NCBI GenBank assembly: GCA_045128515.1
Contig: JBGVRO010000062.1
Span: 4,776-68,775, forward strand
Direction: 5' to 3'
Length of the DNA stretch: 64,000 bases
Source of the DNA: Eubacteriales bacterium
GTDB taxonomy: Bacteria > Bacillota > Clostridia > Oscillospirales > CAG-272
The notes beneath the pieces were generated by a model, which saw only the letters and a program-made list of their open reading frames with translations, was not told the DNA's origin and ran no database searches. Position numbers and translations under genes: made by a program. Shown piece after piece: positions 19,795-37,219 of the stretch (positions are counted from its first letter, which is position 1; each line of letters starts with the position of its first letter).

Positions 19795-22011
19795 TTAGTC
19801 ATTTTTGTTATTATTCCAAACGATTCTGGTATCCAAGATTTCTTTTCTGCACTCGCAGTCCTCATTATAATCTACTATAGTATCAACATCAACCCAAACT
19901 ATATCATCAAAGAAATAACCCAATTCATCTGATTTGAAAAGTTGCACGAGACTTGAATCAGAATTCAACAAACAGTTTTGTCTGATAATAAGCAAATTGC
20001 TGTTGTACTTCATGGTGAGAAACATACTATACAGATTAAATTCACTGTCTTTATAGAGCAACATTCCCGTAGCGAGCTTTGTGCAGATAGAGTTCAATCT
20101 TGAAGTATTAAAGATTGGACTCCCCTCAGATGTTACAGCATTTTTATATCCATTTTCATAACTTGCATATCGATCTTTGAGTATTTCTCTTTGACAATAT
20201 TGTGTTACCCCAGGATACCAAAATATGACTTCGGATGTTTCACCTTTTGCATGATGCTGTGCAGAAAGAAAAGGTAAATCATACTTTAATGCTAGTCTGC
20301 TAAGACGAGCCTGAGCTTCAAAACTATCGGTAAATGCGCACAAGAGGATATTGCCACTTTTATTACACTTGGAAAGGATCTCGGTTTCAAACCAAATATC
20401 ATTTTTTGAGTCATCGAGCATTTCCGGAATAGAGACAACGTTGACAGTTGAATTGATTCTCAAGATGTTCGTTCGCGTTACATCGGTCTTAGAGAGACCG
20501 ATTTCATCGTTATAAACATTTTGGCTTGCAATGTTTTGAACGGATACTTTGTCTCCATCCATCAAGAAAAAATTCTCAACACCGATTCGCGCCATATCTA
20601 GATAAAACTCTCTGGCTCCACCACATCCTACACCTATCACGGTGCACTGTTTTAGAAAATCAACGTTTAATACACTTTCAACTCTTGCAAACGGTGATTC
20701 AGATGGCTCATCTAATACTGGAGAAAAACCAGCATCAAATCGTTTCATGATTTCTTCTTCGCTAAGAGAAGATTCACCGACTTCATCTATCTGAATCACA
20801 TCAAGCTGCACACTTTTAATATTACAAGGAACAACCTTACCATTAGCTTTTACGATAAAACCGAAAACTCTGAACTTGCCGCCAGCAGAGCTATTTACAA
20901 GTGGCATAAACAACTCTTGAAGAGATACTGCACGCATAATTCTTATAGCATACTCGATGTCCGCGCTTGACAGTTCAGATCCATTAAAAGGATGACTATG
21001 TACAAAACCTTTAAAAGAAACGTCCGACCACTCCTCTTCCAAAACTTGATTTAAAAACTTCGTATTTGGTGAGTATTCTGCAGTACCAGTGTTTGCGTTC
21101 TTATCAAAAACGAAGCAATCAATGATTTTGCCATCTGTACTACCCAACATACCACCTTTTTCGGGTTTGAGCGTTCCAATAGTTTCAAGGATTTGTTGGT
21201 ATACTTCTTCCGACATTGTAATTGTAGGCTTAGAATTTGTTTTGAAATTGCTGTTTTTATTACGAAGAGCGCGAAAAGTGCCCGTAGGAAGGATTCCTTT
21301 ATTTTTAACTCTGTGATGGGCCGAACTTTCGTTAAGCTCACCATTCTGAATATAAGAAACCAAAAGTTTAACGTAACGCTTAGCCCATGTAATCATTACC
21401 GCATTTGCGTCCTGGAAATCTGTTACAAGTGAATTCCAGCAAATAGAAGGCCGGTCTGCAGGCAAATTGTAATAATGGAATGCCGAACGATCTTGGCACC
21501 ATTCTTTATAAGGCGCCTCAATTACATAAATCGTATAGCCAGTTCCAGAAAAACGAGTACCGTCATCGTAAGCCCTGCGCTGATATTCCTGTACTATGCG
21601 AAACTTGAAATAGTAAGTTTTATGATCGTTGCCTTCGAGTCTGAACTCTTTGATAAATCTAAAGGTTCCGTCAGGAAGTTTAATTCCGCCACCGTTTCGC
21701 CCACCTTTATTGCCAACTCTATTACCGCCTCCGTTTCTTAATTGACTTGCGGTATTGCTCATAATTCTACTATAATTATTGATTATACGCACTTCGTTGG
21801 GGCCAACATTAATATATGCAGAATTGCCATGATCTATTTGATTTCTTAGATCCACAAGTCGTACGATTGTGACACGGTCATCATAATCGATAATACCTGC
21901 TCTAACTGCTTTTGCTGCCCAATCCTTAGCATTTCCTCCGATGATCATTTCAGCCTTTTTATTTAACTTATCAACAGCATCGCTAAATTGCATGTTATAT
22001 GTATTAGACAT
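19795..22011 (-). CDS. multidomain polyprotein: HEPN-like N-domain, Gly-rich linker, E2/UBC-like, JAB/JAMM peptidase, E1/ThiF-like adenylase
   Basis: RBS GGAGG 7 nt before the ATG at 22011. Numbering from that Met:
- LRNQIDH (55-61), an Rx4H motif
- SQLRNGGGNRVGNKGGRNGGG (89-109)
- FHYYNLPADRPSICWNSL (178-195), resembling the E2 HPN...C loop
- EKGGMLG and HSHPFNGSELSSAD (338-351), the JAMM HxHx7Sx2D motif
- IGVGCGGA (459-466) and DGDKVSVQNIASQ (485-497), ThiF/E1 Rossmann
The JAB and E1 calls are strong; the E2 and HEPN calls are tentative. Confidence 0.7.
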   Translation of the reverse strand: MSNTYNMQFSDAVDKLNKKAEMIIGGNAKDWAAKAVRAGIIDYDDRVTIVRLVDLRNQIDHGNSAYINVGPNEVRIINNYSRIMSNTASQLRNGGGNRVGNKGGRNGGGIKLPDGTFRFIKEFRLEGNDHKTYYFKFRIVQEYQRRAYDDGTRFSGTGYTIYVIEAPYKEWCQDRSAFHYYNLPADRPSICWNSLVTDFQDANAVMITWAKRYVKLLVSYIQNGELNESSAHHRVKNKGILPTGTFRALRNKNSNFKTNSKPTITMSEEVYQQILETIGTLKPEKGGMLGSTDGKIIDCFVFDKNANTGTAEYSPNTKFLNQVLEEEWSDVSFKGFVHSHPFNGSELSSADIEYAIRIMRAVSLQELFMPLVNSSAGGKFRVFGFIVKANGKVVPCNIKSVQLDVIQIDEVGESSLSEEEIMKRFDAGFSPVLDEPSESPFARVESVLNVDFLKQCTVIGVGCGGAREFYLDMARIGVENFFLMDGDKVSVQNIASQNVYNDEIGLSKTDVTRTNILRINSTVNVVSIPEMLDDSKNDIWFETEILSKCNKSGNILLCAFTDSFEAQARLSRLALKYDLPFLSAQHHAKGETSEVIFWYPGVTQYCQREILKDRYASYENGYKNAVTSEGSPIFNTSRLNSICTKLATGMLLYKDSEFNLYSMFLTMKYNSNLLIIRQNCLLNSDSSLVQLFKSDELGYFFDDIVWVDVDTIVDYNEDCECRKEILDTRIVWNNNKND

Positions 22012-22088
22012 TTTAATCCTCCGATCCAAAAGTATTTTGTTTAATTATGCTGAGTTCACAATTTCGAACATCTAAATCTGCTAAACAA

Positions 22089-22117
22089 ATTATACCATAA
22101 AAATATAATAAAATCAA
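22089..22117 (-). promoter_or_regulatory. sigma-A-type promoter for the polyprotein gene
   Basis: On the minus strand: TTGATT (22112..22117), 17 nt, TATAAT (22089..22094), with an upstream TG (TGgTATAAT extended -10). Confidence 0.55.
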
Positions 22118-22143
22118 TTATACAGTTTGTCATTCTATGATTT

Positions 22144-22980
22144 TTATATTCCCTTCGCTTTGGAATAAGCTCTTATTGATACTTTCCCTTTGACTAATAT
22201 TCCGAGTGAAACGTCGTCACCCGTGCCAAGTTTAGTGCCAACTTGACTAACGAATGCGGAAAGCTGCTCGAATTTGCCAAGGTATAGGTTCATTATCGCG
22301 GGAGCAATAAGCCCCGAACTGAAATTGGATAAATTCTGATAAGGGTTTATCATGCCGTCGGTACATACGACAGCGCCATCGTAAGCGGACAACTCATGCA
22401 CCGATACTGAGAGGTGCGAGAAGGCATCGTCCTGGCAGAGTGAGTAGGTTATGTTCGCTACCGGTTCGTCCTCATCCTCTGTAAATGCAGGGATAACAAC
22501 ACCGCTTTTAACTAAGAAGCAACCACCGTCACCGATGGAAACGCAGATAAGCTTCGTACCGAGGATCATAGCCGCATTAAGCGTTGTTCCGTACGCTTTG
22601 ATCGGATTCTTGCGAAGTGACAAAATCTCGGCTTCGGTAAGTTCGGATACCTCTGACATACGAATCGGATTCTTCGCAAGATGCCCCTCGACAAGCGCAT
22701 TCCAACGGCAAAGGATATTGAGCCTTATGTTCTCGATAACGGCTTCTTTCTTGGCTTTGTGAAATGCCGTTCTCTCGATCTCGCGGAGAACGTCTATAAC
22801 CGCATCCGAGGCAAATTTTGAGCCTAAATGACTACGAATATATGCATTTCCGCCATGTCCGTCGCATGCGGTTACGATTGTGCGCTCCTCGTCGCTATAA
22901 CTTGCAGAGAAGTCTTGACAGCGTTTGTTAGCGGTTACGTGGGAGTAACCTATTGATGTTTTAGTAAAGAAAATGCTCAT
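22144..22980 (-). CDS. PP2C-family Ser/Thr phosphatase (TerY-P module)
   Basis: QDFSAS...TACDGHGGNAYI, ...SIGDGGCFLV... and ...VCTDGM... give PP2C metal-binding Asp motifs in canonical order. Confidence 0.8.
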   Translation of the reverse strand: MSIFFTKTSIGYSHVTANKRCQDFSASYSDEERTIVTACDGHGGNAYIRSHLGSKFASDAVIDVLREIERTAFHKAKKEAVIENIRLNILCRWNALVEGHLAKNPIRMSEVSELTEAEILSLRKNPIKAYGTTLNAAMILGTKLICVSIGDGGCFLVKSGVVIPAFTEDEDEPVANITYSLCQDDAFSHLSVSVHELSAYDGAVVCTDGMINPYQNLSNFSSGLIAPAIMNLYLGKFEQLSAFVSQVGTKLGTGDDVSLGILVKGKVSIRAYSKAKGI

Positions 22981-22981
22981 T

Positions 22982-23692
22982 TTACCACTCCCAATCTACT
23001 TCTTCAAGCGCTTGTTTAACCTCTTGTACAACCTGCTCGTTTTTCGGCACAGGCTTCGATGCGTTAACACCTGTGGTTGAGGATTTTACCTTTGAAGCAG
23101 TCAAGACGATAATCTTGATTATGTTCTTAAGAAGGCTCGCATCGTAGCAATCTATAACGTCACCGTTACCCGAAACGAACTCGTCAAGCACATTTCGTGT
23201 TCTATCGTCGTTGAGCATGATTGCGATTCCGTACTTAAGAGCCTCGCGAAACCAAGGAAGTTTCTTTAACTCATCCATCTCTTTGTGAAGCGGATACTTC
23301 GTGGGGTGACCGTCGGTCATAAGAAGTATAATGGGAGCTACTCCACCAAAGTCGGGCATTATGCCGCCCTTTGACTGCTTTGTTAGTATCTCTGAAAGCT
23401 TTCTGTAGGCGAGGTGGAGGTTGCTCCACCCACCGCCCTTGAGATCGTGAAACTTGAAGTGCTCAATTTCCTTCGACCTATCGTTATTGAGAAAGCTTGC
23501 GTCGTTTGAGAAAGGAATGACCGTGATTGCGAAGCTGACGTTCGTGTTCTCGTCCTGCATTTCAACAAGGTGATCGCGAATATCTCGAAGAGCCTTATTT
23601 ACTTGAGATATACGCTCGCCCTGCATGCTCTTGGACGTATCCACAAGGATAATGACGTTCAACTGCTGTTTTGCTATTCTGTCTGCTACCAT
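22982..23692 (-). CDS. vWA-domain protein (TerY-like), copy 1
   Basis: MIDAS motif VDTSKSMQG. The PIILLMTDGHPT block is typical of TerY-type vWA. C-terminal tail EEVDWEW. Confidence 0.8.
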   Translation of the reverse strand: MVADRIAKQQLNVIILVDTSKSMQGERISQVNKALRDIRDHLVEMQDENTNVSFAITVIPFSNDASFLNNDRSKEIEHFKFHDLKGGGWSNLHLAYRKLSEILTKQSKGGIMPDFGGVAPIILLMTDGHPTKYPLHKEMDELKKLPWFREALKYGIAIMLNDDRTRNVLDEFVSGNGDVIDCYDASLLKNIIKIIVLTASKVKSSTTGVNASKPVPKNEQVVQEVKQALEEVDWEW

Positions 23693-23704
23693 AGTGCACC
23701 TACC

Positions 23705-24439
23705 TTACCATTCTACGTCGTCTATATCTTCAAGCTTGTCCTTAATTTCCTCTTGCGCTACCGCGTTATTATTACGCACGCCCCCTTGGTTTCCACCGTT
23801 TACAGAACCTGAGGAGGACTTAACCTTAGATGCGGTTACCGCGATAACCTTGATAACCTTGCGGAGCGCCTCGGCAGTATGCACCTTCAGTACTGTCTCG
23901 GGGTTTCCGGTAAACTTTTTGAGCACGTCCATAGCCTCGTCGGTATCAATGCTTATTGCGAGAGCATATTTAAGAGCGACCTTGAACCATCCCTTTTTCT
24001 TAAGGGTGTCAAGGTGCTTTTCCCAATCGTAGCTTGTGGGAAGACCGTCTGTCATAAGAATAATGATAGGTGCTACACCACCGATGTCTGGCATCTGACC
24101 ACCGTTAGACTTCTTTGAGAGCCATACGGCAAGCTTGTCGTAAGCTGCAGAAAGATCGGTGCCGCCATCAGCATTCAGATCCTTCCACTTAAAATCGGGT
24201 ATATCCTTCGGTTCGGGAAAGATCCACTCTGCTTTGTCAGAAAATTTTAGCGCAGAAATCTTGATAACCGCATCCGAGGTGTCCTCTTGAATCTCGGGCA
24301 TAATGCTCATAACGTCACGGATCGCGTTATTTACCGCACCGATCTTCTCGCCCTCCATCGAGCCCGAGTTATCGATAACGAAAAGTACGTTCAGCTCCTG
24401 TCTGGCGATACCCTCGCCAAGCTCCATTCTATCCTTCAT
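23705..24439 (-). CDS. vWA-domain protein (TerY-like), copy 2
   Basis: MIDAS motif IDNSGSMEG, the block PIIILMTDGLPT and tail EDIDDVEW. Start set at 24439 (GGAGG RBS inside the upstream gene end). The longer track ORF would overlap the upstream gene by 150 nt. Confidence 0.8.
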   Translation of the reverse strand: MKDRMELGEGIARQELNVLFVIDNSGSMEGEKIGAVNNAIRDVMSIMPEIQEDTSDAVIKISALKFSDKAEWIFPEPKDIPDFKWKDLNADGGTDLSAAYDKLAVWLSKKSNGGQMPDIGGVAPIIILMTDGLPTSYDWEKHLDTLKKKGWFKVALKYALAISIDTDEAMDVLKKFTGNPETVLKVHTAEALRKVIKVIAVTASKVKSSSGSVNGGNQGGVRNNNAVAQEEIKDKLEDIDDVEW

Positions 24440-24440
24440 A

Positions 24441-24866
24441 TCAGTTTTCCTCCCATACGTAAGATTTAGCTTTAAGCTCCGGCACGATTCCCTCGGAGCT
24501 TGTGAGCATCTTGATAGACAACTCAACGAAGTCCTCGGGATAGAAGTCGCATGTGAATGCACTTGACAGGCACACGAATGCTCCATCAATATGGAAATTC
24601 TCGAAAATCACGTCGTCTGTATCGGTCTGCATATAAAGATTCTCAAGGCGTTCTCTCTCGTTTACCGACAACTCTTCCTTAAGGTTAAACTCGGCACTAT
24701 ATCCGAAAACCTCGTCTTCGATCGGGTAGAAGGAAAACTTAACGCCACCGATATTGCAATCGAATTCTATGCGCTCGTCATCGGTGCATTTGGGTGAGTA
24801 TCCGTTCTTTACGAGTGTGGCAAAGCTCTGCTCAGAAATCTCTTTAAGTGTAAGTATGTTGTTCAT
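24441..24866 (-). CDS. hypothetical 141-aa protein inside the TerY-P operon
   Basis: Tightly coupled: a 4-nt overlap with the kinase gene and 1 nt before the vWA gene. Acidic, with no motif recognised; vaguely YbjN-like. Confidence 0.5.
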   Translation of the reverse strand: MNNILTLKEISEQSFATLVKNGYSPKCTDDERIEFDCNIGGVKFSFYPIEDEVFGYSAEFNLKEELSVNERERLENLYMQTDTDDVIFENFHIDGAFVCLSSAFTCDFYPEDFVELSIKMLTSSEGIVPELKAKSYVWEEN

Positions 24867-26173
24867 CTTATTTCTCCTATTGTTTTATCGTTGAATTTGA
24901 TTTTGAGATTACGAATAATCGGGATAACTCCGTCCTTTGCGACTATCTTGGTCTTGCCTGCCGAGTCCTTAATCTCCACGTCCGTGTCAAGCGCCAGCTT
25001 GATACCCCAAAGGGATGGATTATTCTTATTAGATACGACACGCCCCACCACGTTCCCGTACTTTGACGAGAACTTGTCCACGTGTGGCTCGTATACTCTC
25101 TTGCCAAGGTCGAGTGCAATGTCGCTCCTACCGATATGAAGTGTGCAGAAGTCCTTAGTGGGAGTATTGCAGGACGGACATTCGGTGTATCGCTTCTTCT
25201 CTGCGTAGCCTACGATGTAATCGTAACCGCACTTACCGCAAGTAATAAGCTCATCGCGATAACGTGAGAGGAGCTTGACCCATTCGAGAGGTGTTGTGCG
25301 CTCATTCTCTCTATCTCGAAGTCCGTCAACGAAAGTGCGGTGGAAGGCTTCCTTAATATAGATCGGCACGTACGCCCATCTACGAAGCACGGCAGAGTGA
25401 TAACCCCTGATAGGACGGTTGGACTTGTCTGTCTTGTGATAAACGAACACCGGATCTTTGCCGAACATCTCGTACTCCGCGTCCTCATCCACGATGTCAT
25501 AGTTCTTAAGCCTCTCACCCTCAAAAGGATTGCCAAGGCACAAAGCCATAAAGAGTATGACGGCAAGAGAGAATCTATCCGAATGAACGTCGGGAAGCTG
25601 CACCGAGCCACTACGGGTCTTATCTCCTCTGACAATCTCGGGAGCCATATAGCGCATCTTGCCAAGGACTCCAAGGTTCTTCTTGTCTGCCGTTACGTTA
25701 TCGTTGTCGCAAATAAGGAGCGCACCGGTGTCGGGATCGAAAAAGAAACTACCGTCGTTAAGATCCTGGTAAGAATATCCCTCCTCGTGAAGCTTCTTGA
25801 AAGCGGTGCAAAGGGATATGCACCACTTGAGCATCACACTCTTGTCGGCAAACTTGTTCTTACCGGTGAGATACGACACGAATGAAACGTAGTTCTTCGG
25901 TCGAAGATCCATTATGTACCCAAGATCTCCGTCGTCAAAATCCAGAAGCTCGATAGGCCAGAGAAACTCCGAGGAAGGAGCGCCCTTTGCTATGTTGTTC
26001 TTAAGGTTGTAGCGGAAGTCAGCGCTTACTCGATCTTTGTAGATCTTAAGCGCGTATTCGCTACCCTCGCACTCAACGAGATAAACCTCACCTTGACCGC
26101 CCTCCCCGAGAAAGTCTGTGACGGTGTAGGTCTTCTCACCCTGAGTTATAGTGTCGTTTCGTTTAAACTTCAT
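24863..26173 (-). CDS. Ser/Thr protein kinase with C-terminal zinc ribbon and FHA-like domain (TerY-P module)
   Basis: G-loop LGEGGQGEVY, ALKIY Lys, catalytic YQDLNDGS, ICDNDN and YMAPE. Then CGKCG...CPSCN, and a beta-rich tail (GRSDIALD...NPSLWGIKL...) with an FHA-like pattern. Confidence 0.8.
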   Translation of the reverse strand: MKFKRNDTITQGEKTYTVTDFLGEGGQGEVYLVECEGSEYALKIYKDRVSADFRYNLKNNIAKGAPSSEFLWPIELLDFDDGDLGYIMDLRPKNYVSFVSYLTGKNKFADKSVMLKWCISLCTAFKKLHEEGYSYQDLNDGSFFFDPDTGALLICDNDNVTADKKNLGVLGKMRYMAPEIVRGDKTRSGSVQLPDVHSDRFSLAVILFMALCLGNPFEGERLKNYDIVDEDAEYEMFGKDPVFVYHKTDKSNRPIRGYHSAVLRRWAYVPIYIKEAFHRTFVDGLRDRENERTTPLEWVKLLSRYRDELITCGKCGYDYIVGYAEKKRYTECPSCNTPTKDFCTLHIGRSDIALDLGKRVYEPHVDKFSSKYGNVVGRVVSNKNNPSLWGIKLALDTDVEIKDSAGKTKIVAKDGVIPIIRNLKIKFNDKTIGEIR

Positions 26174-27023
26174 CTGTTACCTCCTTCTTTGCATCGTGTA
26201 TTCTCGAATAAAATATTGAGGACACCTTGTTCACAACTTCTGCGACTATACCGAGAGAATGAATCTTCTCTACAATATCGTAGGCACTTTCCATGTCGCC
26301 CTTCCAAATCGCATCTATCAGCATTCTTTCAACCACACCGGTTCGAAAAGCATGCTTCGCGCATAACTCTATCGCACGAGTCTTCACCTCACTATCAAGA
26401 GAGCTTGCCGTGCGCTCCATATCGGAAAACGTCAGCTTTACTCCGCGCTCCGTGTTAACGTCACATCCAACTCCAACCAAGAGCATAAAGCCTAAATGCT
26501 TCTCGTATTTAAGTTCCCCAAGATTATAGTAATGCTCCGCTATCATAAACTGGACGGTTTCCCAGAAATCACGTTCCAAAATAGCCGCATTACGCTCGTC
26601 TTCCGAGGTTGTTTTTTCGGCTTTGATTGCTGAAATGCGTTCAAGATGCGCGATGGCTTCTTTGTATCCTTGCTTTGCAAGATCTAAATATTTCTTGTAG
26701 GTAAGCTTGCTGAATGAGGGCTTCTCCTCGTTACCGTTTGCCTCGTTCTCTCTCGCGATAACCCTTTCAAGAAAATCCTTTGCGTACATTCCGTTAAAAC
26801 TATCGTTTCTCATCTTGTTTACTCCCTCTTCGTTCAAAATAATCGTGTAGTCCTTTCCTGCGGTTGCTATTCCCGACTCAAGCATTCTGTCAACTATCTC
26901 GCGTGCTGCTCCGTAACCTATCGCAAGCTTTCGCTGAAATAGAACGCAGGATGCCTTGCCGTGTTCTTTGAGTAACCTAACTCCTTCCTTATAGAGTAAT
27001 TCCTGTCTTTCTGTGTGTTCCAT
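26163..27023 (-). CDS. FtsK-gamma-like winged-helix protein with helical-repeat C-terminal region
   Basis: N-terminus KASCVLFQRKLAIGYGAAREIVDRMLESGI resembles the FtsK gamma motif (S.s.lQRrlriGYnRAarlid.mE..Giv). The rest is helical. Overlaps the kinase gene by 11 nt. Confidence 0.5.
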   Translation of the reverse strand: MEHTERQELLYKEGVRLLKEHGKASCVLFQRKLAIGYGAAREIVDRMLESGIATAGKDYTIILNEEGVNKMRNDSFNGMYAKDFLERVIARENEANGNEEKPSFSKLTYKKYLDLAKQGYKEAIAHLERISAIKAEKTTSEDERNAAILERDFWETVQFMIAEHYYNLGELKYEKHLGFMLLVGVGCDVNTERGVKLTFSDMERTASSLDSEVKTRAIELCAKHAFRTGVVERMLIDAIWKGDMESAYDIVEKIHSLGIVAEVVNKVSSIFYSRIHDAKKEVTDEV

Positions 27024-27073: not shown

Positions 27074-27343
27074 TTATGATGTGTTCGAACACCTTGTTCT
27101 GTTCAATGACAATCCGTCAACCAACGAATAAATCTCTTTAACTTTCATCAACCTGCGTGCTTTTACAGCACCGTTTGAATCTTTTGCTATTTTCAATAAT
27201 ATTTCTGTGGCATAAATTAAGTTGTTTCTTGTAGCACGGAAATCTTGCTCACTTAGAAATGCAATCCCTCTGTGATAATGGAATGCAAAAGAGTCAAACA
27301 AAAAACATGTATTATCCATATTTAAACTTCTTACCCAGCTCAT
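27074..27343 (-). CDS. small helical protein, MIT/TPR-like
   Basis: 89 aa. HYHRGIAFLSEQDFRATRNNLIYATEILLKIAKDSNGAVKARRLMKVKEIYSLVDGL follows the three-helix MIT spacing. Weak call. Confidence 0.35.
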   Translation of the reverse strand: MSWVRSLNMDNTCFLFDSFAFHYHRGIAFLSEQDFRATRNNLIYATEILLKIAKDSNGAVKARRLMKVKEIYSLVDGLSLNRTRCSNTS

Positions 27344-27382: not shown

Positions 27383-28033
27383 TCAATAAGCTGCGACACG
27401 GCAAGCGTTGCGGAAAGGATTAAAGGTGTACGAATCCACCATGTCGGACCTAATAAGGTAAGGGCTTAAAGTAATGACTTCCTCGCACTGCACCTTTTCA
27501 AAAAGCCTAGCTGTGTTACGAGCATCAATTAGAGCATCATGAGCTCCTTCGTCGTAATCTATATCAGCTATAATCAATGCTTCAGACAATCTAAAGCGTT
27601 TATTTGAATCCAGTCTATCTGCAAAAAGCGCTTGGCAATCTATCCAATACTCCTCTCCCATATACATATCAAGTCTTGGTATATTAATTTCTTTGCCCCT
27701 AATCTCTCTTTGTATTTGATTTCTGTCATTATCGCTCCATGCGACAAGACAAGCATCATCAGGCAACCAATTAACAAATGATTCAAGTGCATCCTTAGTA
27801 GAAGGTGCATGTTCGGTGTGTTTACGCGTAATACCGGTTAAGCGTTGAATAAAAGAATCAATCGCACCAAATTGAGGTGCAACATATGTCATAAAAGAAT
27901 CCATAATATGATAGTTCTCATCCACCAAAACAGCACCGATTTGAATAAGTTCGCTTGCCGCCTGAAACGTTCCCTTTCTTGCTCCTTGAGGAACATTGCA
28001 CATCTCCAAATCAACAATAACATAATTACTCAT
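27383..28033 (-). CDS. DEDD-family 3'-5' exonuclease (DnaQ/KapD/ERI-1-like)
   Basis: ExoI VIVDLEM, ExoII ...LVAWSDNDRN... and ExoIII HDALIDARNTARLF (DEDDh). Confidence 0.75.
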   Translation of the reverse strand: MSNYVIVDLEMCNVPQGARKGTFQAASELIQIGAVLVDENYHIMDSFMTYVAPQFGAIDSFIQRLTGITRKHTEHAPSTKDALESFVNWLPDDACLVAWSDNDRNQIQREIRGKEINIPRLDMYMGEEYWIDCQALFADRLDSNKRFRLSEALIIADIDYDEGAHDALIDARNTARLFEKVQCEEVITLSPYLIRSDMVDSYTFNPFRNACRVAAY

Positions 28034-28268: not shown

Positions 28269-28880
28269 TTAATTTTTTGATGCTAGATCTTTCTCATAAA
28301 ACACCTTAAACTCACAGCTTTCGGTATCGGTTATAACGATGGGATAATCTACGTAGATATCACTAGCAGCAGAGGCTTTAATTGCCTTTTTAATGCGATC
28401 CTCACATAGCTCGCCCTCGGTAGAGAGAAGGCTTCCGATTGCCTCGCACTCGCCCGAACCGATAGCGACGTAATCGTCGATCTCGATAACGGTGGCATTG
28501 CCTGATATGTAGAAGAGCTTGTCCTTATACGCAAAGAGGAACGACGACTCAAACTCCGGTGGGTTGTCTCCTTTTTTTATTGCTCGGTACTCCTCCAGCT
28601 CCTCGAACATAGCGGGGATCAGACGCTTTACAACGAAGGAGAAATCCACTCTGTCTTTGAGCTGTGCCATCTCGGGCACAAGGTCACGCGCAACGCGGAT
28701 AATGTTAGCTTCTCTTACAAGTCCCACCTGAGCAAAGAGGCAATTTTCTGCATCAAGCACCTTCCATACCTTGTAATTGTTAGGGTTAGAAAGAGTTCTT
28801 CTCGTACCGCCTCTCGTGCACTGGCTATCTGCTCCTATTGTTACTTTTCCGTTCTCTTTAATTGCTACAACTACGCTCAT
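28269..28880 (-). CDS. HslV/proteasome-beta-like Ntn hydrolase with N-terminal Ser
   Basis: MSVVVAIKENGKVTIGADSQ aligns to HslV TTIVSVRRNGHVVIAGDGQ, and YVAIGSGECEAIGSLL to HslV IAIGSGG. The C-terminus SDIYVDYPIVITDT aligns to ICIYTNHFHTIEEL. The residue after Met is Ser. Confidence 0.65.
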   Translation of the reverse strand: MSVVVAIKENGKVTIGADSQCTRGGTRRTLSNPNNYKVWKVLDAENCLFAQVGLVREANIIRVARDLVPEMAQLKDRVDFSFVVKRLIPAMFEELEEYRAIKKGDNPPEFESSFLFAYKDKLFYISGNATVIEIDDYVAIGSGECEAIGSLLSTEGELCEDRIKKAIKASAASDIYVDYPIVITDTESCEFKVFYEKDLASKN

Positions 28881-28905: not shown

Positions 28906-29949
28906 TTACGCTACTCTAACACCCGAAATTGCTCTCATAATATCTGCTTCGGTGATATTCGTGTTTTCGGGAGCACCTGCAATAATACTTCTAATGACAG
29001 ACTGCTTTGCCTTTTCACAGACATATTCAATCTCCGCACCCGAAAAACCTTCTGTATTATTGGCAAGACGTACATAGCTTGTAATCTGACACGGTATACC
29101 ATTCAGATGCTTTTCAAACATCAACTGTCTGGTTTGCATATCCGGCAACGGAACATATATTTTCTCATCGAACCTTCCGGGGCGAATTATCGCTCGATCA
29201 AGAATATCCGGTCGGTTTGTAGCGGCAATAACGGTAACGTTTCCGGAAGAACGATTTATACCGTCCAGCTGTGTTAACAACTCTGCTACCATACGGTTTG
29301 CAATAGTATCATTATTACGCTTTGAGGCTATAGAATCAATTTCATCGAAGAAAATAACCGCACTTTCTTCTTTCCTTGCCTCGTCGAATAAAGCTTTTAT
29401 CTTTCCTTCGGTTTCGCCAAACCATTTACTGCCAAGATCGGAAAACTTTATTGAAAAGAAGGTGGATTCGGTTTCGTTTGCAATAGCTTTGGCAATCATT
29501 GTTTTACCGTTTCCGGGAGGGCCGTACAAAAGAATACCACCTCCCACCTTTTTGTTGAATTTTTTATAAAGTTCCTTATACCGTCTTGGATAAAGTATCT
29601 TGTCGTATATCTGACTTTTAACTTCGTCAAGACCGATGACATCCGAGAATGATACGTTAGGTATTTCGGATTTATCAAATGCAAATTTTTCGTCACTCTG
29701 AACCTTCACAGAAGAGCTACGCTTTAACTTTAGCTTGATATATTTTTCAAGCTCTCTTACATGCGCCACCATCTCCAGCAACCAATCGCGCATTTCGTCT
29801 TGCTCCTCATCACATAGCCCCTGCACGTATTCCTTTAATTGCATCGCTGCGCCCTCAAAATATTTGATTGCCAGCTCCGGTTCGTCTTTAGCTAAATACA
29901 TAATACCGTTTGCGTATGCTGATAAAAAACGATCGTTATTATTACTCAT
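28906..29949 (-). CDS. classical-clade AAA+ ATPase with N-terminal MIT-like domain (Vps4/spastin/katanin-like)
   Basis: Walker A LLYGPPGNGKT, Walker B VIFFDEIDS and SRH ATNRPDILDRAIIRPGRFD. PNVSFSDVIGLDEVK parallels Vps4 PNVKWSDVAGLEGAK. The N-terminal 70 aa follow three-helix MIT spacing. Confidence 0.75.
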   Translation of the reverse strand: MSNNNDRFLSAYANGIMYLAKDEPELAIKYFEGAAMQLKEYVQGLCDEEQDEMRDWLLEMVAHVRELEKYIKLKLKRSSSVKVQSDEKFAFDKSEIPNVSFSDVIGLDEVKSQIYDKILYPRRYKELYKKFNKKVGGGILLYGPPGNGKTMIAKAIANETESTFFSIKFSDLGSKWFGETEGKIKALFDEARKEESAVIFFDEIDSIASKRNNDTIANRMVAELLTQLDGINRSSGNVTVIAATNRPDILDRAIIRPGRFDEKIYVPLPDMQTRQLMFEKHLNGIPCQITSYVRLANNTEGFSGAEIEYVCEKAKQSVIRSIIAGAPENTNITEADIMRAISGVRVA

Positions 29950-29961: not shown

Positions 29962-31173
29962 TTACTTCAAATTGCTTGTACTTTTTTGCAACTCGAAAAA
30001 CTCCTTTACTTTATAAAAGACGCTTTCGAACGCATGATATGTTTGAGGTAGATACTTTTGAACATTAGTAAGTAAATCATCTCGTCCTGTTATTTTCAAA
30101 GAAAAGAGATTTGCCCAAAGCTCATCCACCTGATAGGCTTCGTCTTTTCTGTAATAGGCCGAAGTGTGTATTTGCAAGTTGTAGGGATGTTCCATGTCGC
30201 AAACTGATGACAACACATCCAAAATAGCCTCGTTATCCTCGCAGAACTGTTTGTGAGCCCTACAATGTATCATTTTTTCTCTAGTGGCAATCATTGATTT
30301 TTCAACAATCAATTTGCTCATCTCTTGATACTTTTCGTATTTTTTTTGGAAATCAGGAGTTTTTTGACGATTGCTCTTAAACGACGGGATAAATATTCCG
30401 CAGCATCCACCAAGAGATCTCGACAGCTTGTAATACTCGGCAAGGAAAGTGCTGTTTTCAGCAATTGCAGAATACTCCACTTCACTAAGTTCACCTACAA
30501 CCGCTGCTTTATGTGCCTCCAGTATTTTTTCTTTAATCGTTCCTTCGTTCTCTGAAATTTCTCTCTTTAGGACATCGGCAAGTGTACCTTCCCCCAAAAT
30601 TTGCATAGACAACAAATCGTATGATTGTGTTCGATCTCCAAATAAGCACTGTGCTCCGGCATGTCCTAATTCATGAAAAAGCGTGCTTCCATCTATGTCA
30701 TCAATGGTGGAAAAAACTTTAATTCTAATGTTACCGTCTGAATCCTTTCCTGATGTACAATATTGTGTTCTATCAATAGAAAATTGCACATCGTTTACGG
30801 TTATGATATTATAGACAAACTCCAAGAACTCATCTTTTATATTTGTTATAGCTCTCGTAAGTTTCTCTTCGTCTATAATCTGATATTTTTTAATATTCTT
30901 CTCGTTAACATACCTGTGTTTGTACTGATTAATAATATCTTCGTGTGAAATTGTCGAATCCAGACCAGCCTCGTGCTCTAATTCGCATGCTTCAATCATT
31001 CGATTAAGTTCAGACTCTTCCTCTTCGCTTAATTCAAATGAATAGGATGAGATAAACTCTTCATACATAGCATCTATTTCCTCCTCACTGACAGACCTTT
31101 GTCCTTTGCTGTTTGACATTACCCCAACTCCTTCGCATCCGATGTTTTTGGCGTTTTTCTTTGAATTTTCCAT
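29962..31173 (-). CDS. HExxH zinc-metallopeptidase-like protein
   Basis: STLFHELGHAG motif mid-protein, acidic N-terminal region, RBS AAGGAGA. Its stop lies 12 nt before the AAA+ start. An alternative start at 31119 also has an AAGGAG RBS. Confidence 0.5.
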   Translation of the reverse strand: MENSKKNAKNIGCEGVGVMSNSKGQRSVSEEEIDAMYEEFISSYSFELSEEEESELNRMIEACELEHEAGLDSTISHEDIINQYKHRYVNEKNIKKYQIIDEEKLTRAITNIKDEFLEFVYNIITVNDVQFSIDRTQYCTSGKDSDGNIRIKVFSTIDDIDGSTLFHELGHAGAQCLFGDRTQSYDLLSMQILGEGTLADVLKREISENEGTIKEKILEAHKAAVVGELSEVEYSAIAENSTFLAEYYKLSRSLGGCCGIFIPSFKSNRQKTPDFQKKYEKYQEMSKLIVEKSMIATREKMIHCRAHKQFCEDNEAILDVLSSVCDMEHPYNLQIHTSAYYRKDEAYQVDELWANLFSLKITGRDDLLTNVQKYLPQTYHAFESVFYKVKEFFELQKSTSNLK

Positions 31174-33657: not shown

Positions 33658-33924
33658 TCAGTTCTTTTTTATTATATCAAGTATCATTTGTGCTCCTAGT
33701 TTGAAAGCATATTCGAAGATAGCTGCTTCTGCGCGGCTCACGTATTCATCCCAGCAGTCGTGTAGCTTCTCATACAGTTCCTTTTGCTCTGCATTAAAGG
33801 TCTTATCTAAATCCTCGTGATGCCTGGCGATGTAGCCTAGCAGTTCCTTCATCTCTTTTGTGTTCGTTCTGCTGTCCTCTTGGGGCACGATATTTCCGTG
33901 CCATAGTTCTTTTATTATGTTCAT
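33658..33924 (-). CDS. hypothetical small helical protein
   Basis: ATG at 33924 with a GGAGG RBS. MNIIKELWHGNIVPQE... 88 aa. Confidence 0.5.
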   Translation of the reverse strand: MNIIKELWHGNIVPQEDSRTNTKEMKELLGYIARHHEDLDKTFNAEQKELYEKLHDCWDEYVSRAEAAIFEYAFKLGAQMILDIIKKN

Positions 33925-34102
33925 TCTTATTACCTCCGGTAGCACAACACAATACCACACAAATTTCGTAAAGTCCAGACTTTTGGAGAAAGAAAAAACG
34001 ACGATTTTACTCGTCGCTATTCTTTGTTTCAGGCAGTAAAGATTTTTGCCATTGTGTTTTGTCGTCCATGCTATAGTTCCTCAAGAAAATGCATAAAATA
34101 AT

Positions 34103-34165: not shown

Positions 34166-34420
34166 ATGCCTGTATTATCTCAATTTTACGGAATTATAAT
34201 TAGAATGTACTTTTTGCAAAGTGAGCACAATCCTCCGCACATTCACGCAATCTACAACGAGGATGTTGCTGCTATAGATTTTATGACGGGTGAGGTTCTT
34301 GAAGGTCATCTTCCGCCCAAAGCTTTGAGCATGGTTAAGGAGTGGCTCGCGCTCCATAAGAACACCTTGATGGAGATTTGGAAGACACAAGAATTCAAGA
34401 AGATACCGCCGCTGGAATAA
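34166..34420 (+). CDS. DUF4160-family protein
   Basis: FYGIIIRMYF...EHNPPHIHA is the family hallmark. RBS AAAGGAG. Confidence 0.75.
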   Translation: MPVLSQFYGIIIRMYFLQSEHNPPHIHAIYNEDVAAIDFMTGEVLEGHLPPKALSMVKEWLALHKNTLMEIWKTQEFKKIPPLE

Positions 34421-34431
34421 GGAGATTTACT

Positions 34432-37214: not shown

Positions 37215-37219
37215 TTTTC

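What the first reader, a model, noticed from the sequence alone, without database searches (positions are those of the whole stretch)
22144..27023. Extended TerY-P module: two vWA paralogues, PP2C, kinase-Zn ribbon-FHA, plus FtsK-gamma wHTH and a 141-aa protein in one translationally coupled string
**Known core.** vWA (TerY) + PP2C + Ser/Thr kinase is the TerY-P triad. It was defined by comparative genomics (Anantharaman, Iyer and Aravind) and later scored as an anti-phage system in the Gao et al. 2020 screen.

**How tightly the six ORFs are coupled here.**
- an 11-nt overlap
- a 4-nt overlap
- a 1-nt gap
- a 12-nt gap
- a 1-nt gap

**Additions to the triad.**
- a duplicated vWA, both copies with intact MIDAS DxSxS
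- a kinase with a CxxC...CxxC ribbon and an FHA-like tail
- a leading protein whose N-terminus resembles the DNA-binding FtsK gamma domain
- an acidic 141-aa protein

The extra components suggest a DNA-sensing input and a phospho-dependent (FHA) read-out. These are not part of the minimal triad description.
Basis: partly seen in the sequence, partly recalled or inferred. Interest (0 to 1): 0.6.

Follow-up and report, generated by a model that had tools for sequence, protein, structure and literature searches.

The report
TerY-P-type kinase–vWA–phosphatase switch, extended variant
This six-gene string is a real but rare variant of a known bacterial kinase/phosphatase/vWA "TerY-P" switch, a module linked to phage defence, and it shows which parts are fixed core, which are swappable adaptors, and that the switch often sits beside a small proteasome-like protease.

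Summary
**Verdict: observation confirmed, interpretation partly supported.** The six minus-strand genes, their junctions and all domain calls hold.

- **Membership.** The string belongs to the TerY-P kinase/vWA/PP2C kind. Its kinase and vWA proteins are distant homologues of those in the enterobacterial ter locus.
- **Clade.** It sits in a large gut-Firmicutes clade. A kinase relative was found in 415 species-representative genome loci.
- **Fixed core of that clade:** kinase (Zn ribbon plus FHA-fold tail) → vWA-A → vWA-B → PP2C. So the duplicated vWA, the ribbon and the FHA-like tail are standard features, not additions.
- **True extras:**
  - The 286-aa protein, with an FtsK-gamma winged helix and a helical Sel1-like domain.
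  - The 141-aa acidic protein, which models as a YbjN/type-III-chaperone fold.
  - Both recur in related loci as shuffled adaptors.
- **What is missing.** This locus lacks the usual fifth gene found after PP2C.
- **What it has instead.** A DEDDh exonuclease, an IetA-like AAA ATPase, an HslV-like protease and a JAB–E1 protein lie next to it.

The most likely function is a phospho-switch of a conflict or anti-phage system with exchangeable effectors. That function is inferred, not shown.

Novelty: new variant of a known kind. Interest: about 0.5.

The parts
26163..27023 (-). 286-aa leading protein. It has an N-terminal FtsK-gamma winged helix (residues 7-52, DNA 26868-27005), a helical C-terminal domain with one divergent Sel1-like repeat (residues ~97-281, DNA 26181-26735), and a C-terminal tail ...EVTDEV.
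   Evidence: - Pfam FtsK_gamma: 5e-10, above the gathering cutoff.
- Only 23 homologue clusters exist, all from metagenomes.
- The C-terminal domain is shared with a 354-aa protein in L006 that lacks the winged helix (28% identity, E 7e-19), and is duplicated in 410-aa variants.
- Sub-threshold Sel1 hits fall on the motif LGxxLLxGxGC in 4 of 7 relatives.
- The domain-swapped L010 protein keeps the tail as EVTDEI.
24863..26173 (-). 436-aa Ser/Thr kinase. It comprises a kinase domain (residues 16 to ~295, DNA 25289-26128), a four-Cys Zn ribbon (C312/C315/C332/C335, DNA 25169-25240) and an FHA-fold beta-sandwich tail (residues ~343-436, DNA 24866-25147).
   Evidence: - Pfam Pkinase: 6e-12.
- 5686 homologues at E<1e-5.
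- Invariant in the alignment: the G-loop, K43, D137, D156/D158 and the APE motif.
- AF2 model of residues 296-436: pLDDT 93.5.
- Foldseek: APLF, ArnA, DgcB, KIF1A and Rad53 FHA domains at probability 0.96-1.0 but E only 0.03-0.08.
- No FHA match at sequence level.
24441..24866 (-). 141-aa acidic protein (pI 4.17) with a YbjN / type-III-secretion-chaperone-like fold. Probably a peptide-binding adaptor. C-terminal tail ...SYVWEEN.
   Evidence: - No Pfam, NCBIfam, PADLOC, PHROG or PDB sequence match.
- Only 26 clusters at 50% identity among 1.8 billion representatives.
- AF2 pLDDT 93.1.
- Foldseek best-ranked hits: uncharacterised proteins 2plg and 3cxj, then SycH, SycT, SycE, CesT, ExsC, YbjN and AmyR at probability 0.98-1.0.
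- Homologues sit between the kinase and vWA genes in other loci.
23705..24439 (-). vWA-A (244 aa), TerY-like, with a complete MIDAS. It carries a conserved TASKVKSS motif, an acidic helix and a C-terminal ...DDVEW.
   Evidence: - Pfam VWA: 1e-9.
- 30% identity to ter-locus TerY, E 1e-15.
- DxSxS..T..D kept in 44/44 orthologues.
- Tail D[VI]EW kept in nearly all loci.
22982..23692 (-). vWA-B (236 aa), a paralogue of vWA-A (about 41-43% identity). Its MIDAS has Ser in place of the middle Thr. C-terminal ...VDWEW.
   Evidence: - Pfam VWA: 9e-9.
- The paralogue pair is conserved in 38/41 Firmicutes-type loci.
- Ser at the Thr position in 41/44.
- Tail DDWEW conserved.
22144..22980 (-). PP2C-family Ser/Thr phosphatase (278 aa), the last gene of the string.
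   Evidence: - Pfam PP2C_2: 6e-28.
- Present after the vWA genes in 40/41 Firmicutes-type loci and 15/15 distant-clade loci.
27383..28033 (-). DEDDh 3'-5' exonuclease (216 aa). It is the probable first gene of the same transcription unit and a candidate effector.
   Evidence: - Pfam RNase_T: 5e-14. PADLOC DEDDh: 1e-18.
- Promoter-like site at 28116-28089 and a terminator-like hairpin at 28246-28219 just upstream. No strong terminator follows until after PP2C.
- Homologues lie near the kinase in L004, L006/7, L027, L033 and L055.
27074..27343 (-). 89-aa protein, a free-standing copy of the N-terminal helical domain of SpoVK-type AAA ATPases found in related protease loci.
   Evidence: - jackhmmer aligns residues 9-87 to residues 1-79 of 681- to 727-aa AAA ATPases in L146, L170, L116 and L169.
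- The AAA profile also hits it, at E 6e-4.
28269..28880 (-). HslV-like (proteasome beta-type) peptidase, 203 aa. Its N-terminus MSVVVAIK places a Ser at the nucleophile position.
   Evidence: - Pfam Proteasome: 5e-6. PHROG 'peptidase HslV family': 2e-14.
- Homologues lie within 10 kb of the kinase in 14/29 loci.
- In the reciprocal scan, 7 loci seeded with this protein carry the kinase module directly downstream.
28906..29949 (-). AAA+ ATPase (347 aa) of the CDC48 / IetA-like type, with a helical N-domain. It lies immediately upstream of the HslV-like gene.
   Evidence: - PADLOC IetA: 7e-44 over residues 38-320.
- NCBIfam CDC48 and PAN subfamilies: 1e-66 to 1e-68.
- It moves together with the HslV-like gene in L001 and L004.
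19795..22029 (-). JAB peptidase plus ThiF/E1-like adenylyltransferase fusion. 744 aa from the TTG start; more likely 738 aa from the ATG at 22011, which has a GGAGG site. It has its own promoter-like sites.
   Evidence: - Pfam ThiF: 3e-15. PADLOC E1-E2 and JAB models. NCBIfam 6A-MBL cap2_3: weak.
- Full-length homologue (47% identity) five genes downstream of the module in L008/L009, and homologues also in L073 and L024.
- Promoter-like sites at 22133-22089.

Best explanation
**What it is.** The string is an extended member of the TerY-P kind of phosphorylation switch. It belongs to a large clade from gut and rumen Firmicutes. That clade has a fixed four-gene core: kinase (Zn ribbon plus FHA-fold tail) → vWA-A → vWA-B → PP2C.

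**Proposed working (inferred).**
1. The two MIDAS-bearing vWA paralogues form the sensing and scaffolding pair.
2. The kinase phosphorylates Ser/Thr sites in its partners. Candidates are the conserved TASKVKSS segment ahead of each vWA tail and the EVTDEV tail of the 286-aa protein.
3. The kinase then holds or re-reads those sites through its own ribbon-FHA tail. This parallels archaeal ArnA (Zn-finger-FHA), which binds phosphorylated ArnB (vWA).
4. PP2C resets the switch.

**The two extra proteins are adaptors, not enzymes.**
- The FtsK-gamma winged helix would place the complex on DNA or on a partner protein.
- The YbjN/chaperone-fold protein would bind an extended peptide.

**Output.** It comes through exchangeable effectors.
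- In most relatives the effector is a fifth gene after PP2C, with a conserved N-domain joined to a membrane or 'toastrack' domain.
- In this locus and its closest relatives that gene is missing. The likely outputs are instead the co-transcribed DEDDh exonuclease and the adjacent IetA-like AAA ATPase with its HslV-like protease.

**Biological role.** Most likely conflict or anti-phage defence.

**Shown:** gene structure, domain and fold identities, homology to the ter-locus triad, conservation and co-occurrence statistics.

**Inferred:** all interactions, the substrates, the trigger and the defence role.
For: **Membership in the TerY-P kind.**
- Domain calls.
- Direct homology to the ter-locus kinase and TerY.

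**Fixed core.**
- 38/41 Firmicutes-type loci have two vWA genes and 40/41 have PP2C.
- The distant clade has kinase → one vWA → PP2C in 15/15 loci.

**FHA-fold tail and the Arn parallel.**
- AF2 model and Foldseek hits.
- ArnA itself, a Zn-finger-FHA protein that binds the phosphorylated C-terminus of the vWA protein ArnB, is among the hits (PMC6509490).

**Candidate docking and phosphorylation elements.**
- Conserved TASKVKSS motif, acidic helix and terminal Trp in both vWA paralogues.

**Adaptor behaviour of the extras.**
- FtsK-gamma occurs as 68-104-aa stand-alone genes beside the kinase.
- It is also fused to an HslV-like subunit (L016, 81.8 bits), to an FtsH-like protease (L054) and to the fifth-gene N-domain (L028).
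- The 141-aa family lies between the kinase and vWA genes in several loci, and also beside AAA/HslV genes that have no kinase nearby.

**Exchangeable effector.**
- The fifth gene is present in 35/40 loci, with 3-7 TM segments or DUF4097.
- It is absent from the window and from L001-L007 and L010-L012. There, HslV-like, AAA or JAB-E1 genes follow PP2C.

**Protease link.**
- 14/29 kinase-seeded loci have an HslV-like gene within 10 kb.
- 7 loci seeded with the HslV-like protein carry the kinase module directly downstream.

**Defence context.**
- A WYL-WCX regulator lies downstream in 22/36 loci, and the window has a WYL-type protein.
- The AAA ATPase matches IetA and the exonuclease matches a PADLOC DEDDh model.
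- Kinases 62-66% identical occur across Clostridia, Erysipelotrichaceae and Anaeroplasmataceae, which suggests horizontal spread.
- TerY-P is reported as active against T7-like phages (PMC7699616, citing Gao 2020).

**Operon structure.**
Against: - There are no experimental data for this clade.
- No PADLOC model matched the vWA or PP2C proteins, even at E≤10. The kinase matched only mad6 and PD-T4-6 models.
- The FHA similarity is at fold level only, with Foldseek E 0.03-0.08. No Pfam FHA hit was found.
- The Ser of the canonical SxxH motif is not conserved, and the GR arginine is often Lys. Phosphothreonine binding is therefore unproven.
- The kinase catalytic loop is atypical: YQDLNDGS in place of HRDxKxxN, and DND in place of DFG.
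- 11/29 loci have neither protease nor AAA genes nearby, and HslV/AAA pairs occur without the kinase. The link to the protease is facultative.
- The AAA-HslV pair appears to be a separate transcription unit here.
- The high sequence conservation of the kinase (64-98% identity among the 120 best hits) is unusual for fast-evolving defence genes.
Confidence: 0.6

Rival explanations
1. A housekeeping signalling module. The kinase, vWA proteins and PP2C would regulate a normal cellular process, such as proteolysis by the HslV-like/AAA machine, envelope or surface structures, or development. ArnA/ArnB/ArnC/PP2A regulate the archaellum in this way. No role in conflict with phages would be involved.
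For: - The closest mechanistic analogue, ArnA-ArnB, is a physiological regulator (PMC6509490).
- The kinase family is very well conserved, at 64-98% identity among the 120 best hits, and is found in 415 species representatives.
- Many fifth-gene products are membrane proteins. These could be ordinary signalling partners.
Against: - Accessory content and gene order are highly variable between close relatives.
- Near-identical cassettes occur across bacterial classes.
- The neighbours are typical of defence islands: WYL-WCX regulators, an IetA-like ATPase, DEDDh, JAB-E1, and serine recombinases in L008.
- In the window, the cassette region (22-26 kb) has higher G+C (0.45-0.48) than its flanks (0.36-0.42).
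Confidence: 0.15
2. Neighbours by accident. The tight string would really be a four-gene TerY-P core. The 286-aa and 141-aa genes, and the DEDDh/AAA/HslV/JAB-E1 genes, would be separate systems that merely share a defence island.
For: - 11/29 related loci have the core with no protease or AAA genes.
- HslV/AAA pairs exist without the kinase.
- The scan predicts separate promoters for the 403-AAA-HslV unit and for JAB-E1.
- The 286-aa family is rare, with 23 clusters.
Against: - The 286-aa and 141-aa genes overlap the kinase gene by 11 and 4 nt.
- They keep their positions in contigs where the first protein is only 43% identical.
- The FtsK-gamma domain recurs next to, inside or fused with components of both modules.
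- The 141-aa family sits between kinase and vWA in independent loci.
- Co-occurrence of HslV-like genes with the kinase (14/29, and 7 loci in the reciprocal scan) is far above what a single-copy gene would give by chance.
Confidence: 0.12
3. A function of a mobile element. The cassette would belong to a prophage, integrative element or plasmid and would control that element's own life cycle or maintenance, like the kinase-kinase-phosphatase module of Pf prophages.
For: - L008 carries a serine recombinase and a rolling-circle Rep-like gene a few kb upstream.
- Distant relatives occur on plasmids: the IncHI2 ter locus and a Prevotella plasmid.
- Nine IMG/VR viral contigs encode distant relatives.
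- One faecal phage record has a 28%-identical kinase.
Against: - No phage record matches the 21-kb region.
- All nine viral-contig hits belong to the distant clade at 33-39% identity. None is of the Firmicutes type.
- PHROG hits are limited to generic domains.
- No integrase, capsid or conjugation genes were seen beside the cassette in the window. One flank is an ABC transporter. The flanking ORFs that were checked (33.6-42.7 kb) are small DUF proteins, YbjN-like proteins, an AAA ATPase and a flavin reductase.
Confidence: 0.08

Closest known systems
TerY-P (TerY-phosphorylation) triad of the ter locus and of Gao et al. 2020
   Same: - A vWA (TerY-like, MIDAS) protein, a PP2C phosphatase and a Ser/Thr kinase in one operon.
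- The kinase carries a C-terminal Zn ribbon.
- Direct though distant sequence homology: kinase 25.7% identity (E 1e-26) and vWA 30% identity (E 1e-15) to the IncHI2 ter locus.
- Several vWA paralogues also occur in the ter locus.
   Different: - Gene order is kinase-first here (kinase → vWA → vWA → PP2C), against vWA...PP2C-kinase in the ter locus.
- No TerD, TerW or TerY_C genes are present.
- The PP2C is much shorter (278 aa against 545 aa).
- The vWA proteins end in acidic-Trp tails, whereas the ter-locus TerY proteins end in PPPPPE... tails.
- The kinase tail after the ribbon is FHA-fold. The version tested by Gao et al. is described as OB-fold (PMC11090510).
- No PADLOC model matched the vWA or PP2C proteins.
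ArnA-ArnB-ArnC/PP2A archaellum regulatory module of Sulfolobus acidocaldarius
   Same: - The same set of parts: a Zn-finger/ribbon plus FHA element, a vWA protein with a phosphorylated C-terminal region, a eukaryote-type kinase and a Ser/Thr phosphatase.
- The ArnA FHA domain is among the best-ranked structural matches of the kinase tail (PMC6509490).
   Different: - The ribbon-FHA unit is fused to the kinase here, rather than being a separate protein.
- The phosphatase is PP2C, not PP2A.
- There are two vWA paralogues.
- No sequence-level relationship was detected.
- The Arn module is a physiological regulator, not an island-borne cassette.
[quoted passage not shown]
   Same: - Duplicated TerY-like vWA genes, one slightly shorter and lacking the middle MIDAS Thr.
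- Association with a CDC48-related AAA ATPase (PMC11090510).
   Different: - No McrBC-type CoCoNuT core, HEPN or CnuH genes are present here.
- The ATPase is a single-domain, IetA-like protein paired with an HslV-like protease.
- The ATPase is not inserted between the vWA genes, except in L050.
IetAS (ATPase plus protease defence pair) and HslUV/CodWX
   Same: - An AAA ATPase matching IetA models at 7e-44, next to a protease gene.
- The protease is of the HslV family and has Ser at position 2, the N-terminal nucleophile position. That CodW uses an N-terminal Ser in the same way is from my own knowledge, not a tool result.
   Different: - The partner protease is HslV-like, not the serine protease IetS.
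- The ATPase is not HslU.
- In relatives, one to four tandem HslV-like paralogues occur, most lacking the nucleophile.

Membership tests
TerY-P triad | vWA (TerY-like) protein with a MIDAS metal site | tested here: met
   - Pfam VWA matches both copies.
- DxSxS..T..D is kept in vWA-A. vWA-B has Ser at the Thr position.
- 26-30% identity to annotated TerY proteins.
TerY-P triad | PP2C phosphatase and Ser/Thr kinase encoded with the vWA gene in one operon | tested here: met
   - PP2C_2 at 6e-28 and Pkinase at 6e-12.
- Junctions between -11 and +12 nt.
- The arrangement is conserved in all related loci that have enough flank.
TerY-P triad | Kinase fused at its C-terminus to a zinc ribbon (as described in PMC11090510) | tested here: met
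   - C312, C315, C332 and C335 are invariant.
- A profile of the tail matches Zn-ribbon proteins in the PDB.
- The alignment to the ter-locus kinase runs through the ribbon.
TerY-P triad | Homology to the triad proteins of the archetypal ter locus | tested here: met
   - Kinase E 1e-26; vWA-A E 1e-15, against locus L090 (terW-vWA-TerD-vWA-TerY_C-PP2C-kinase).
- The PP2C gave no blastp hit to the ter-locus PP2C at E≤0.01. It did hit the Prevotella plasmid PP2C, at E 8e-16.
TerY-P triad | Recognition by defence-system models (PADLOC) | tested here: not met
   - No PADLOC family matched vWA-A, vWA-B or PP2C, even at E≤10.
- The kinase hit only mad6, PD-T4-6 and C3a189 models.
- I could not verify which TerY-P models the library holds.
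TerY-P triad | Protection against phage (Gao et al. 2020 phenotype) | not testable with these tools
   This needs cloning and phage challenge.
FHA domain | Beta-sandwich FHA fold | tested here: met
   - AF2 pLDDT 93.5, with ten strands over residues 343-436.
- Foldseek PDB best-ranked hits are predominantly FHA domains (APLF TM 0.65, probability 1.0), but E is only 0.03-0.08.
FHA domain | Sequence-profile membership (Pfam FHA) and the conserved GR...SxxH...N phosphothreonine-binding residues | tested here: inconclusive
   - No Pfam FHA hit at E≤0.01 and no FHA chain in the PDB profile search.
- By my reading of the alignment, a basic residue (R or K) follows the Gly. Positions below are numbered within the modelled tail (residues 296-436): His at position 69 is kept in at least 90% of sequences and Asn at position 87 is invariant. 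The Ser of SxxH is replaced by Tyr, Phe, Ile or Leu.
FtsK gamma winged helix | Pfam FtsK_gamma match above the gathering score | tested here: met
   - 39.3 bits against a 30.6-bit cutoff, residues 7-52.
- All ten related small or fused proteins also match, six of them above the cutoff.
FtsK gamma winged helix | Sequence-specific DNA (KOPS) binding or XerD activation | not testable with these tools
   This needs EMSA or a similar assay. There is no FtsK motor domain in this protein.
YbjN / type III secretion chaperone-like fold | alpha-beta3-alpha-beta2-alpha fold of small acidic proteins | tested here: met
   - AF2 pLDDT 93.1.
- Foldseek hits to SycH, SycT, SycE, CesT, ExsC, YbjN and AmyR at probability 0.98-1.0, TM 0.5-0.67, E 4e-3 to 5e-2.
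- pI 4.17.
YbjN / type III secretion chaperone-like fold | Pfam YbjN sequence membership | tested here: not met
   - No Pfam family at E≤0.01 for the window protein, and no YbjN hit among the 21 family members scanned at E≤1.
- By contrast, the protein at 37220-37699 does match Pfam YbjN.
IetAS | IetA-type ATPase paired with an IetS serine protease | tested here: not met
   - The ATPase matches IetA at 7e-44.
- The adjacent protease is HslV-like. No IetS match was found.

The most novel reading that the evidence does not exclude
The TerY-P-type phospho-switch would control a dedicated, DNA-tethered, proteasome-like protease.
- In this reading, phosphorylated vWA or adaptor proteins deliver substrates, or act as activators, for an IetA-like AAA ATPase and an HslV-like ring.
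- In related loci that ring is built from one Ser-nucleophile subunit and up to three nucleophile-less paralogues.
- FtsK-gamma winged helices would recruit the machine to DNA. They are fused in different genomes to the adaptor, to the protease subunit or to an FtsH-like protease.
- Together with the neighbouring JAB-E1 enzyme, this would be a bacterial immune module built from the same parts list as the eukaryotic ubiquitin-proteasome system: a vWA receptor, a JAB peptidase, an E1, an AAA unfoldase and differentiated beta-type subunits.
Probability: 0.2. Interest if true: 0.8.

Novelty: new variant of a known kind. Interest (0 to 1): 0.5.

Why it matters
**Gap it addresses.** TerY-P is listed as an anti-phage system, but I found no mechanistic study of it in the held literature.

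**What this locus and its roughly 80 compared relatives provide.**
- A parts list for a large, unstudied gut-Firmicutes branch.
- What is invariant:
  - the kinase with its ribbon-FHA tail
  - a vWA paralogue pair with conserved Ser/Thr motifs and acidic-Trp tails
  - the PP2C
- What is exchangeable:
  - FtsK-gamma adaptors
  - YbjN-fold adaptors
  - the effector gene

**Testable hypotheses that follow.**
- Whether the FHA tail docks on phosphorylated vWA tails.
- Which effector is the output.

**A link I did not find described.** The switch is associated with HslV-like/AAA protease cassettes. If that link is functional, it would bear on how regulated proteolysis is used in bacterial immunity.

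Tried and rejected
- **PADLOC and NCBIfam naming.** Neither yielded a TerY-P name. The only hits were generic kinase, vWA and PP2C matches.
- **Phage origin.** Megablast of 19-40 kb against 50,697 phage records found nothing. tblastn of the kinase found one 28%-identical hit. An IMG/VR scan found only nine distant relatives. I therefore rejected a prophage origin for this clade.
- **Sequence-level identification of the 141-aa protein.** Pfam on 21 family members and a PDB profile search gave nothing. Only the predicted fold was informative.
- **Sequence-level FHA detection.** It failed. The weak Pfam EutN/CcmL hit (E 0.004, residues 372-416) pointed to an OB-like reading. I rejected that in favour of FHA because the high-confidence model's best-ranked matches are predominantly FHA domains.
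- **The original TerY-P paper (PMC4104200).** It is not held. My description of the triad rests on PMC11090510, PMC4978471 and PMC7699616.
- **Structure of the 286-aa C-terminal domain.** Its Sel1-like assignment rests on sub-threshold hits and on jackhmmer links to Sel1-repeat proteins.
- **Rfam scan of the window.** It found only one tRNA.
- **First metagenome scan with the HslV alignment.** It succeeded with a narrower alignment.

Full report
**1.
One search lists six minus-strand ORFs at the reported coordinates.
- This assumes the first vWA gene starts at the ATG at 24439. Homologue lengths (244-245 aa) confirm that start.
- Every start codon has a GGAG-type ribosome-binding motif inside the upstream gene.

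Pfam results:
- FtsK_gamma at residues 7-52 of the 286-aa protein: 39.3 bits against a 30.6-bit cutoff.
- Pkinase: 6e-12.
- VWA in both vWA proteins.
- PP2C_2: 6e-28.
- Nothing for the 141-aa protein.

The 141-aa protein is indeed acidic, with pI 4.17.

**2. The string is a member of the TerY-P kind, by direct homology.**
- tblastn against plasmids found about 2,270 enterobacterial records. Their ter locus reads terW-vWA-TerD-vWA-TerY_C-PP2C-kinase.
- blastp gives kinase 25.7% identity (E 1e-26, residues 12-340, through the Zn ribbon) and vWA-A 30% identity (E 1e-15).
- A Prevotella plasmid carries HTH-TerY_C-kinase-vWA-PP2C with a 40%-identical kinase.
- The literature defines the triad as vWA plus PP2C plus a kinase fused to a Zn ribbon. 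It also records versions with duplicated vWA genes and with CDC48-like ATPases (PMC11090510), and activity against T7-like phages (PMC7699616).
- PADLOC did not recognise the vWA or PP2C proteins at all. So this branch is far from whatever models that library holds.

**3. What is core and what is extra.**
The kinase has thousands of full-length homologues. A scan of one genome per species found 415 loci, of which 80 were analysed. I ran profile searches of all window proteins against the ORFs of these loci.

There are two clades.
- Firmicutes-type (59-83% kinase identity). Hosts are Clostridia, Erysipelotrichaceae, Anaeroplasmataceae and other gut or rumen bacteria. The order is kinase → vWA-A → vWA-B → PP2C. 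Two vWA genes occur in 38/41 loci and PP2C in 40/41.
- Distant clade (34-41% kinase identity). Hosts are mainly Treponema and other spirochaetes and Bacteroidales, with a few Synergistaceae and Clostridia. The order is kinase → one vWA → PP2C, in 15/15 loci.

The ribbon-plus-tail region of the kinase is conserved in both clades. It was matched in 76 of the 81 kinase ORFs. The duplicated vWA, the Zn ribbon and the tail are therefore clade features, not additions of this locus.

In vWA-A the full MIDAS (DxSxS..T..D) is invariant. vWA-B carries Ser at the Thr position in 41/44. This echoes the 'shorter internal vWA lacking the middle Thr' described for CoCoNuT extensions.

**4. The kinase tail.**
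- An AF2 model of residues 296-436, built from a 28-sequence alignment, has pLDDT 93.5.
- Its best-ranked Foldseek matches in the PDB are predominantly FHA domains: APLF (TM 0.65), ArnA, DgcB, KIF1A and Rad53. Probabilities are 0.96-1.0 but E-values only 0.03-0.08.
- No FHA signal appears at sequence level.
- Of the canonical phosphothreonine-binding residues, the basic residue after Gly, a His and an invariant Asn are kept. The SxxH serine is not.
- I conclude that the FHA fold is supported but phospho-dependence is open.
- The ArnA hit is instructive. ArnA is a Zn-finger-FHA protein that binds the phosphorylated C-terminus of the vWA protein ArnB, under control of a eukaryote-type kinase and a phosphatase (PMC6509490). 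That is the same parts list with a different wiring.

**5. Conserved tails.**
- Both vWA paralogues share a TASKVKSS motif, then a short variable linker, an acidic helix and an invariant C-terminal Trp. vWA-A ends D[VI]EW and vWA-B ends DDWEW.
- The single vWA of the distant clade also ends in acidic residues with a Trp within the last three positions, in 17/23.
- Many 141-aa family members end SY[VI]WEE[NK].
- The 286-aa protein ends EVTDEV. A domain-swapped relative (L010, helical domain first and winged helix last) keeps EVTDEI.
- These are candidate docking or phosphorylation elements. That is inference only.

**6. The 141-aa protein.**
- No sequence family was found.
- There are only 26 clusters at 50% identity among 1.8 billion representatives.
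- The AF2 model (pLDDT 93.1) matches type-III-secretion chaperones and YbjN/AmyR at probability 0.98-1.0. This is a small acidic adaptor fold that binds extended peptides.
- Homologues lie between the kinase and vWA genes in L001, L006, L010, L019, L022/23, L034, L048, L050, L112 and L122, sometimes in tandem.
- Homologues also lie beside AAA/HslV genes with no kinase nearby (L145, L146, L170).

**7. The 286-aa protein.**
- It has only 23 homologue clusters.
- Its C-terminal helical domain is shared with a 354-aa protein that lacks the winged helix, and it is duplicated in 410-aa variants.
- Sub-threshold Sel1 hits fall on its conserved motif.

The FtsK-gamma domain itself is widespread in the system: 10/29 loci with full flanks. 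It appears in several forms, all confirmed by Pfam:
- as a 68-104-aa stand-alone gene before the kinase or between the kinase and vWA genes
- fused to an HslV-like subunit (L016)
- fused to an FtsH-like AAA-M41 protease (L054)
- fused to WYL-type regulators (L035, L052)
- fused to the fifth-gene N-domain (L028)

It therefore behaves as a shuffled adaptor.

**8. What the window lacks, and what it has instead.**
- Clustering all ORFs of the loci revealed a fifth gene directly after PP2C (0-20 nt) in 35/40 Firmicutes-type loci.
- This gene has a conserved ~100-aa N-domain with no Pfam match, joined to 3-7 transmembrane segments, a DUF4097 'toastrack' domain or other C-termini.
- A WYL-WCX regulator follows it in 22/36 loci.
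- The window and its closest relatives (L001-L007, L010-L012) lack this gene.
- In those loci PP2C is followed by HslV-like genes (L011, L012), by 154 aa plus AAA plus HslV (L001), or by JAB-E1 (window).

HslV-like genes lie within 10 kb of the kinase in 14/29 loci, often as two to four tandem paralogues. One paralogue begins MS[VL]V..., placing Ser at the nucleophile position. The others lack it.

In the reciprocal scan seeded with the HslV-like protein, 7 loci carry the kinase module directly downstream. Several others have AAA plus HslV alone. The association is therefore strong but facultative.

**9. Transcription units in the window (consensus scan).**
- [403-aa HExxH protein - AAA - HslV-like], from a promoter-like site at 31339-31311 to a hairpin at 28246-28219.
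- [DEDDh - 89 aa - 286 aa - kinase - 141 aa - vWA-A - vWA-B - PP2C], from 28116-28089.
- [JAB-E1], from 22133-22089.

The 89-aa protein is a free-standing copy of the N-domain of SpoVK-type ATPases from related protease loci. So the long operon mixes parts of both modules.

**10. Interpretation.**
The best-supported model (confidence about 0.6) is a TerY-P-type phospho-switch of a conflict system, with modular adaptors and exchangeable effectors.

Rivals:
- a housekeeping regulator (0.15)
- accidental neighbours (0.12)
- a mobile-element function (0.08)

Nothing here tests function. The interactions, substrates, trigger and defence role are all inferred.

I rate the finding as a new variant of a known kind, with interest about 0.5. 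The most novel reading still open is phospho-control of a DNA-tethered proteasome-like protease (probability about 0.2).

Noticed in passing
L006:4639-6952; also L012:13612-15963, L024:224-2566, L036:7421-9750, L037:18669-21024, L059:6174-8444, L073:4616-6939; window 28269-28880: Arrays of one to four tandem HslV-like (proteasome beta-type) paralogues lie next to the kinase module. One paralogue starts MS[VL]V[VI]A, which places Ser at the nucleophile position. The others start MI[VI]... or MGA.../MAA... and lack it. This suggests a hetero-oligomeric ring with differentiated subunits. I found no paper that links HslV-like proteins with phage defence.
   Followed up: partly
L014:13575-14471, L038:13635-14690, L008:13572-14537 and about 35 other loci; absent from the window: A fifth gene follows PP2C directly in 35/40 Firmicutes-type loci. 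It has a conserved ~100-aa N-domain with no Pfam match, joined to a variable C-terminus (3-7 TM segments, DUF4097 toastrack or other). It is probably the usual effector of this clade.
   Followed up: partly
window 22982-23010 and 23705-23730 (3' ends of the vWA genes); all related loci: Both vWA paralogues end in an acidic helix and an invariant C-terminal Trp (D[VI]EW and DDWEW), preceded by a conserved TASKVKSS motif. The distant-clade vWA proteins also end in acidic residues plus Trp. The ter-locus TerY proteins do not.
   Followed up: partly
window 27074-27343: The 89-aa protein is homologous to the first ~80 residues of 391- to 727-aa SpoVK-type AAA ATPases that sit beside HslV-like genes in other contigs. 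It is a free-standing ATPase N-domain.
   Followed up: partly
window 19795-22029: A JAB peptidase plus ThiF/E1 fusion with a ~250-aa unassigned N-terminal region and a weak match to the '6A-MBL cap2_3' model. Full-length homologues lie near the kinase module in L008/L009 (47% identity), L073 and L024. No ubiquitin-like target gene was identified.
   Followed up: partly
window 29962-31173: A 403-aa protein with no family match but an HELGH (HExxH) motif, encoded directly upstream of the AAA ATPase and the HslV-like gene. It may be a metallopeptidase.
   Followed up: no
window 36738-42116 (minus strand): A second small module:
- a 740-aa protein with no family match
- a 672-aa SpoVK-type AAA ATPase (AAA plus AAA_lid_6)
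- two tandem ~158-aa proteins, one matching Pfam YbjN above its cutoff

The fold class is the same as the 141-aa protein, but the sequence family is different.
   Followed up: no
window 32420-33547; L011:8721-9665 and 21 other loci: A WYL-type protein lies at the upstream edge of the island (PADLOC WYL 2e-12). In related loci an HTH_11-WYL-WCX regulator lies on the same strand 0.4-3.4 kb after PP2C, in 22/36.
   Followed up: partly
window 24863-26173 (kinase residues 135-159): The catalytic loop reads YQDLNDGSFF and the metal-binding motif reads CDNDN, in place of HRDxKxxN and DFG. Both are invariant in 32 homologues, so this is a conserved atypical active site rather than decay.
   Followed up: no
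P0154 (3739 aa): A giant protein with 20 matched stretches to the C-terminal part (residues ~90-134) of the 141-aa family.
   Followed up: no
L054:118-1704 and L067:117-1079: A soluble FtsH-like protease (AAA plus Peptidase_M41) fused at its C-terminus to an FtsK-gamma winged helix, encoded directly upstream of the kinase.
   Followed up: no
window 34166-34872 and 33658-33960: An overlapping DUF4160 / DUF2442-HTH gene pair on the plus strand and a DUF6809 protein, between the island and the next module. The stretch from about 35.0 to 36.7 kb has no long ORF and no Rfam match.
   Followed up: no
window 22001-26000 versus flanks: G+C is 0.45-0.48 across the kinase/vWA genes, against 0.36-0.42 in the neighbouring 16-22 kb and 26-34 kb stretches. 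This is consistent with a horizontally acquired cassette.
   Followed up: no
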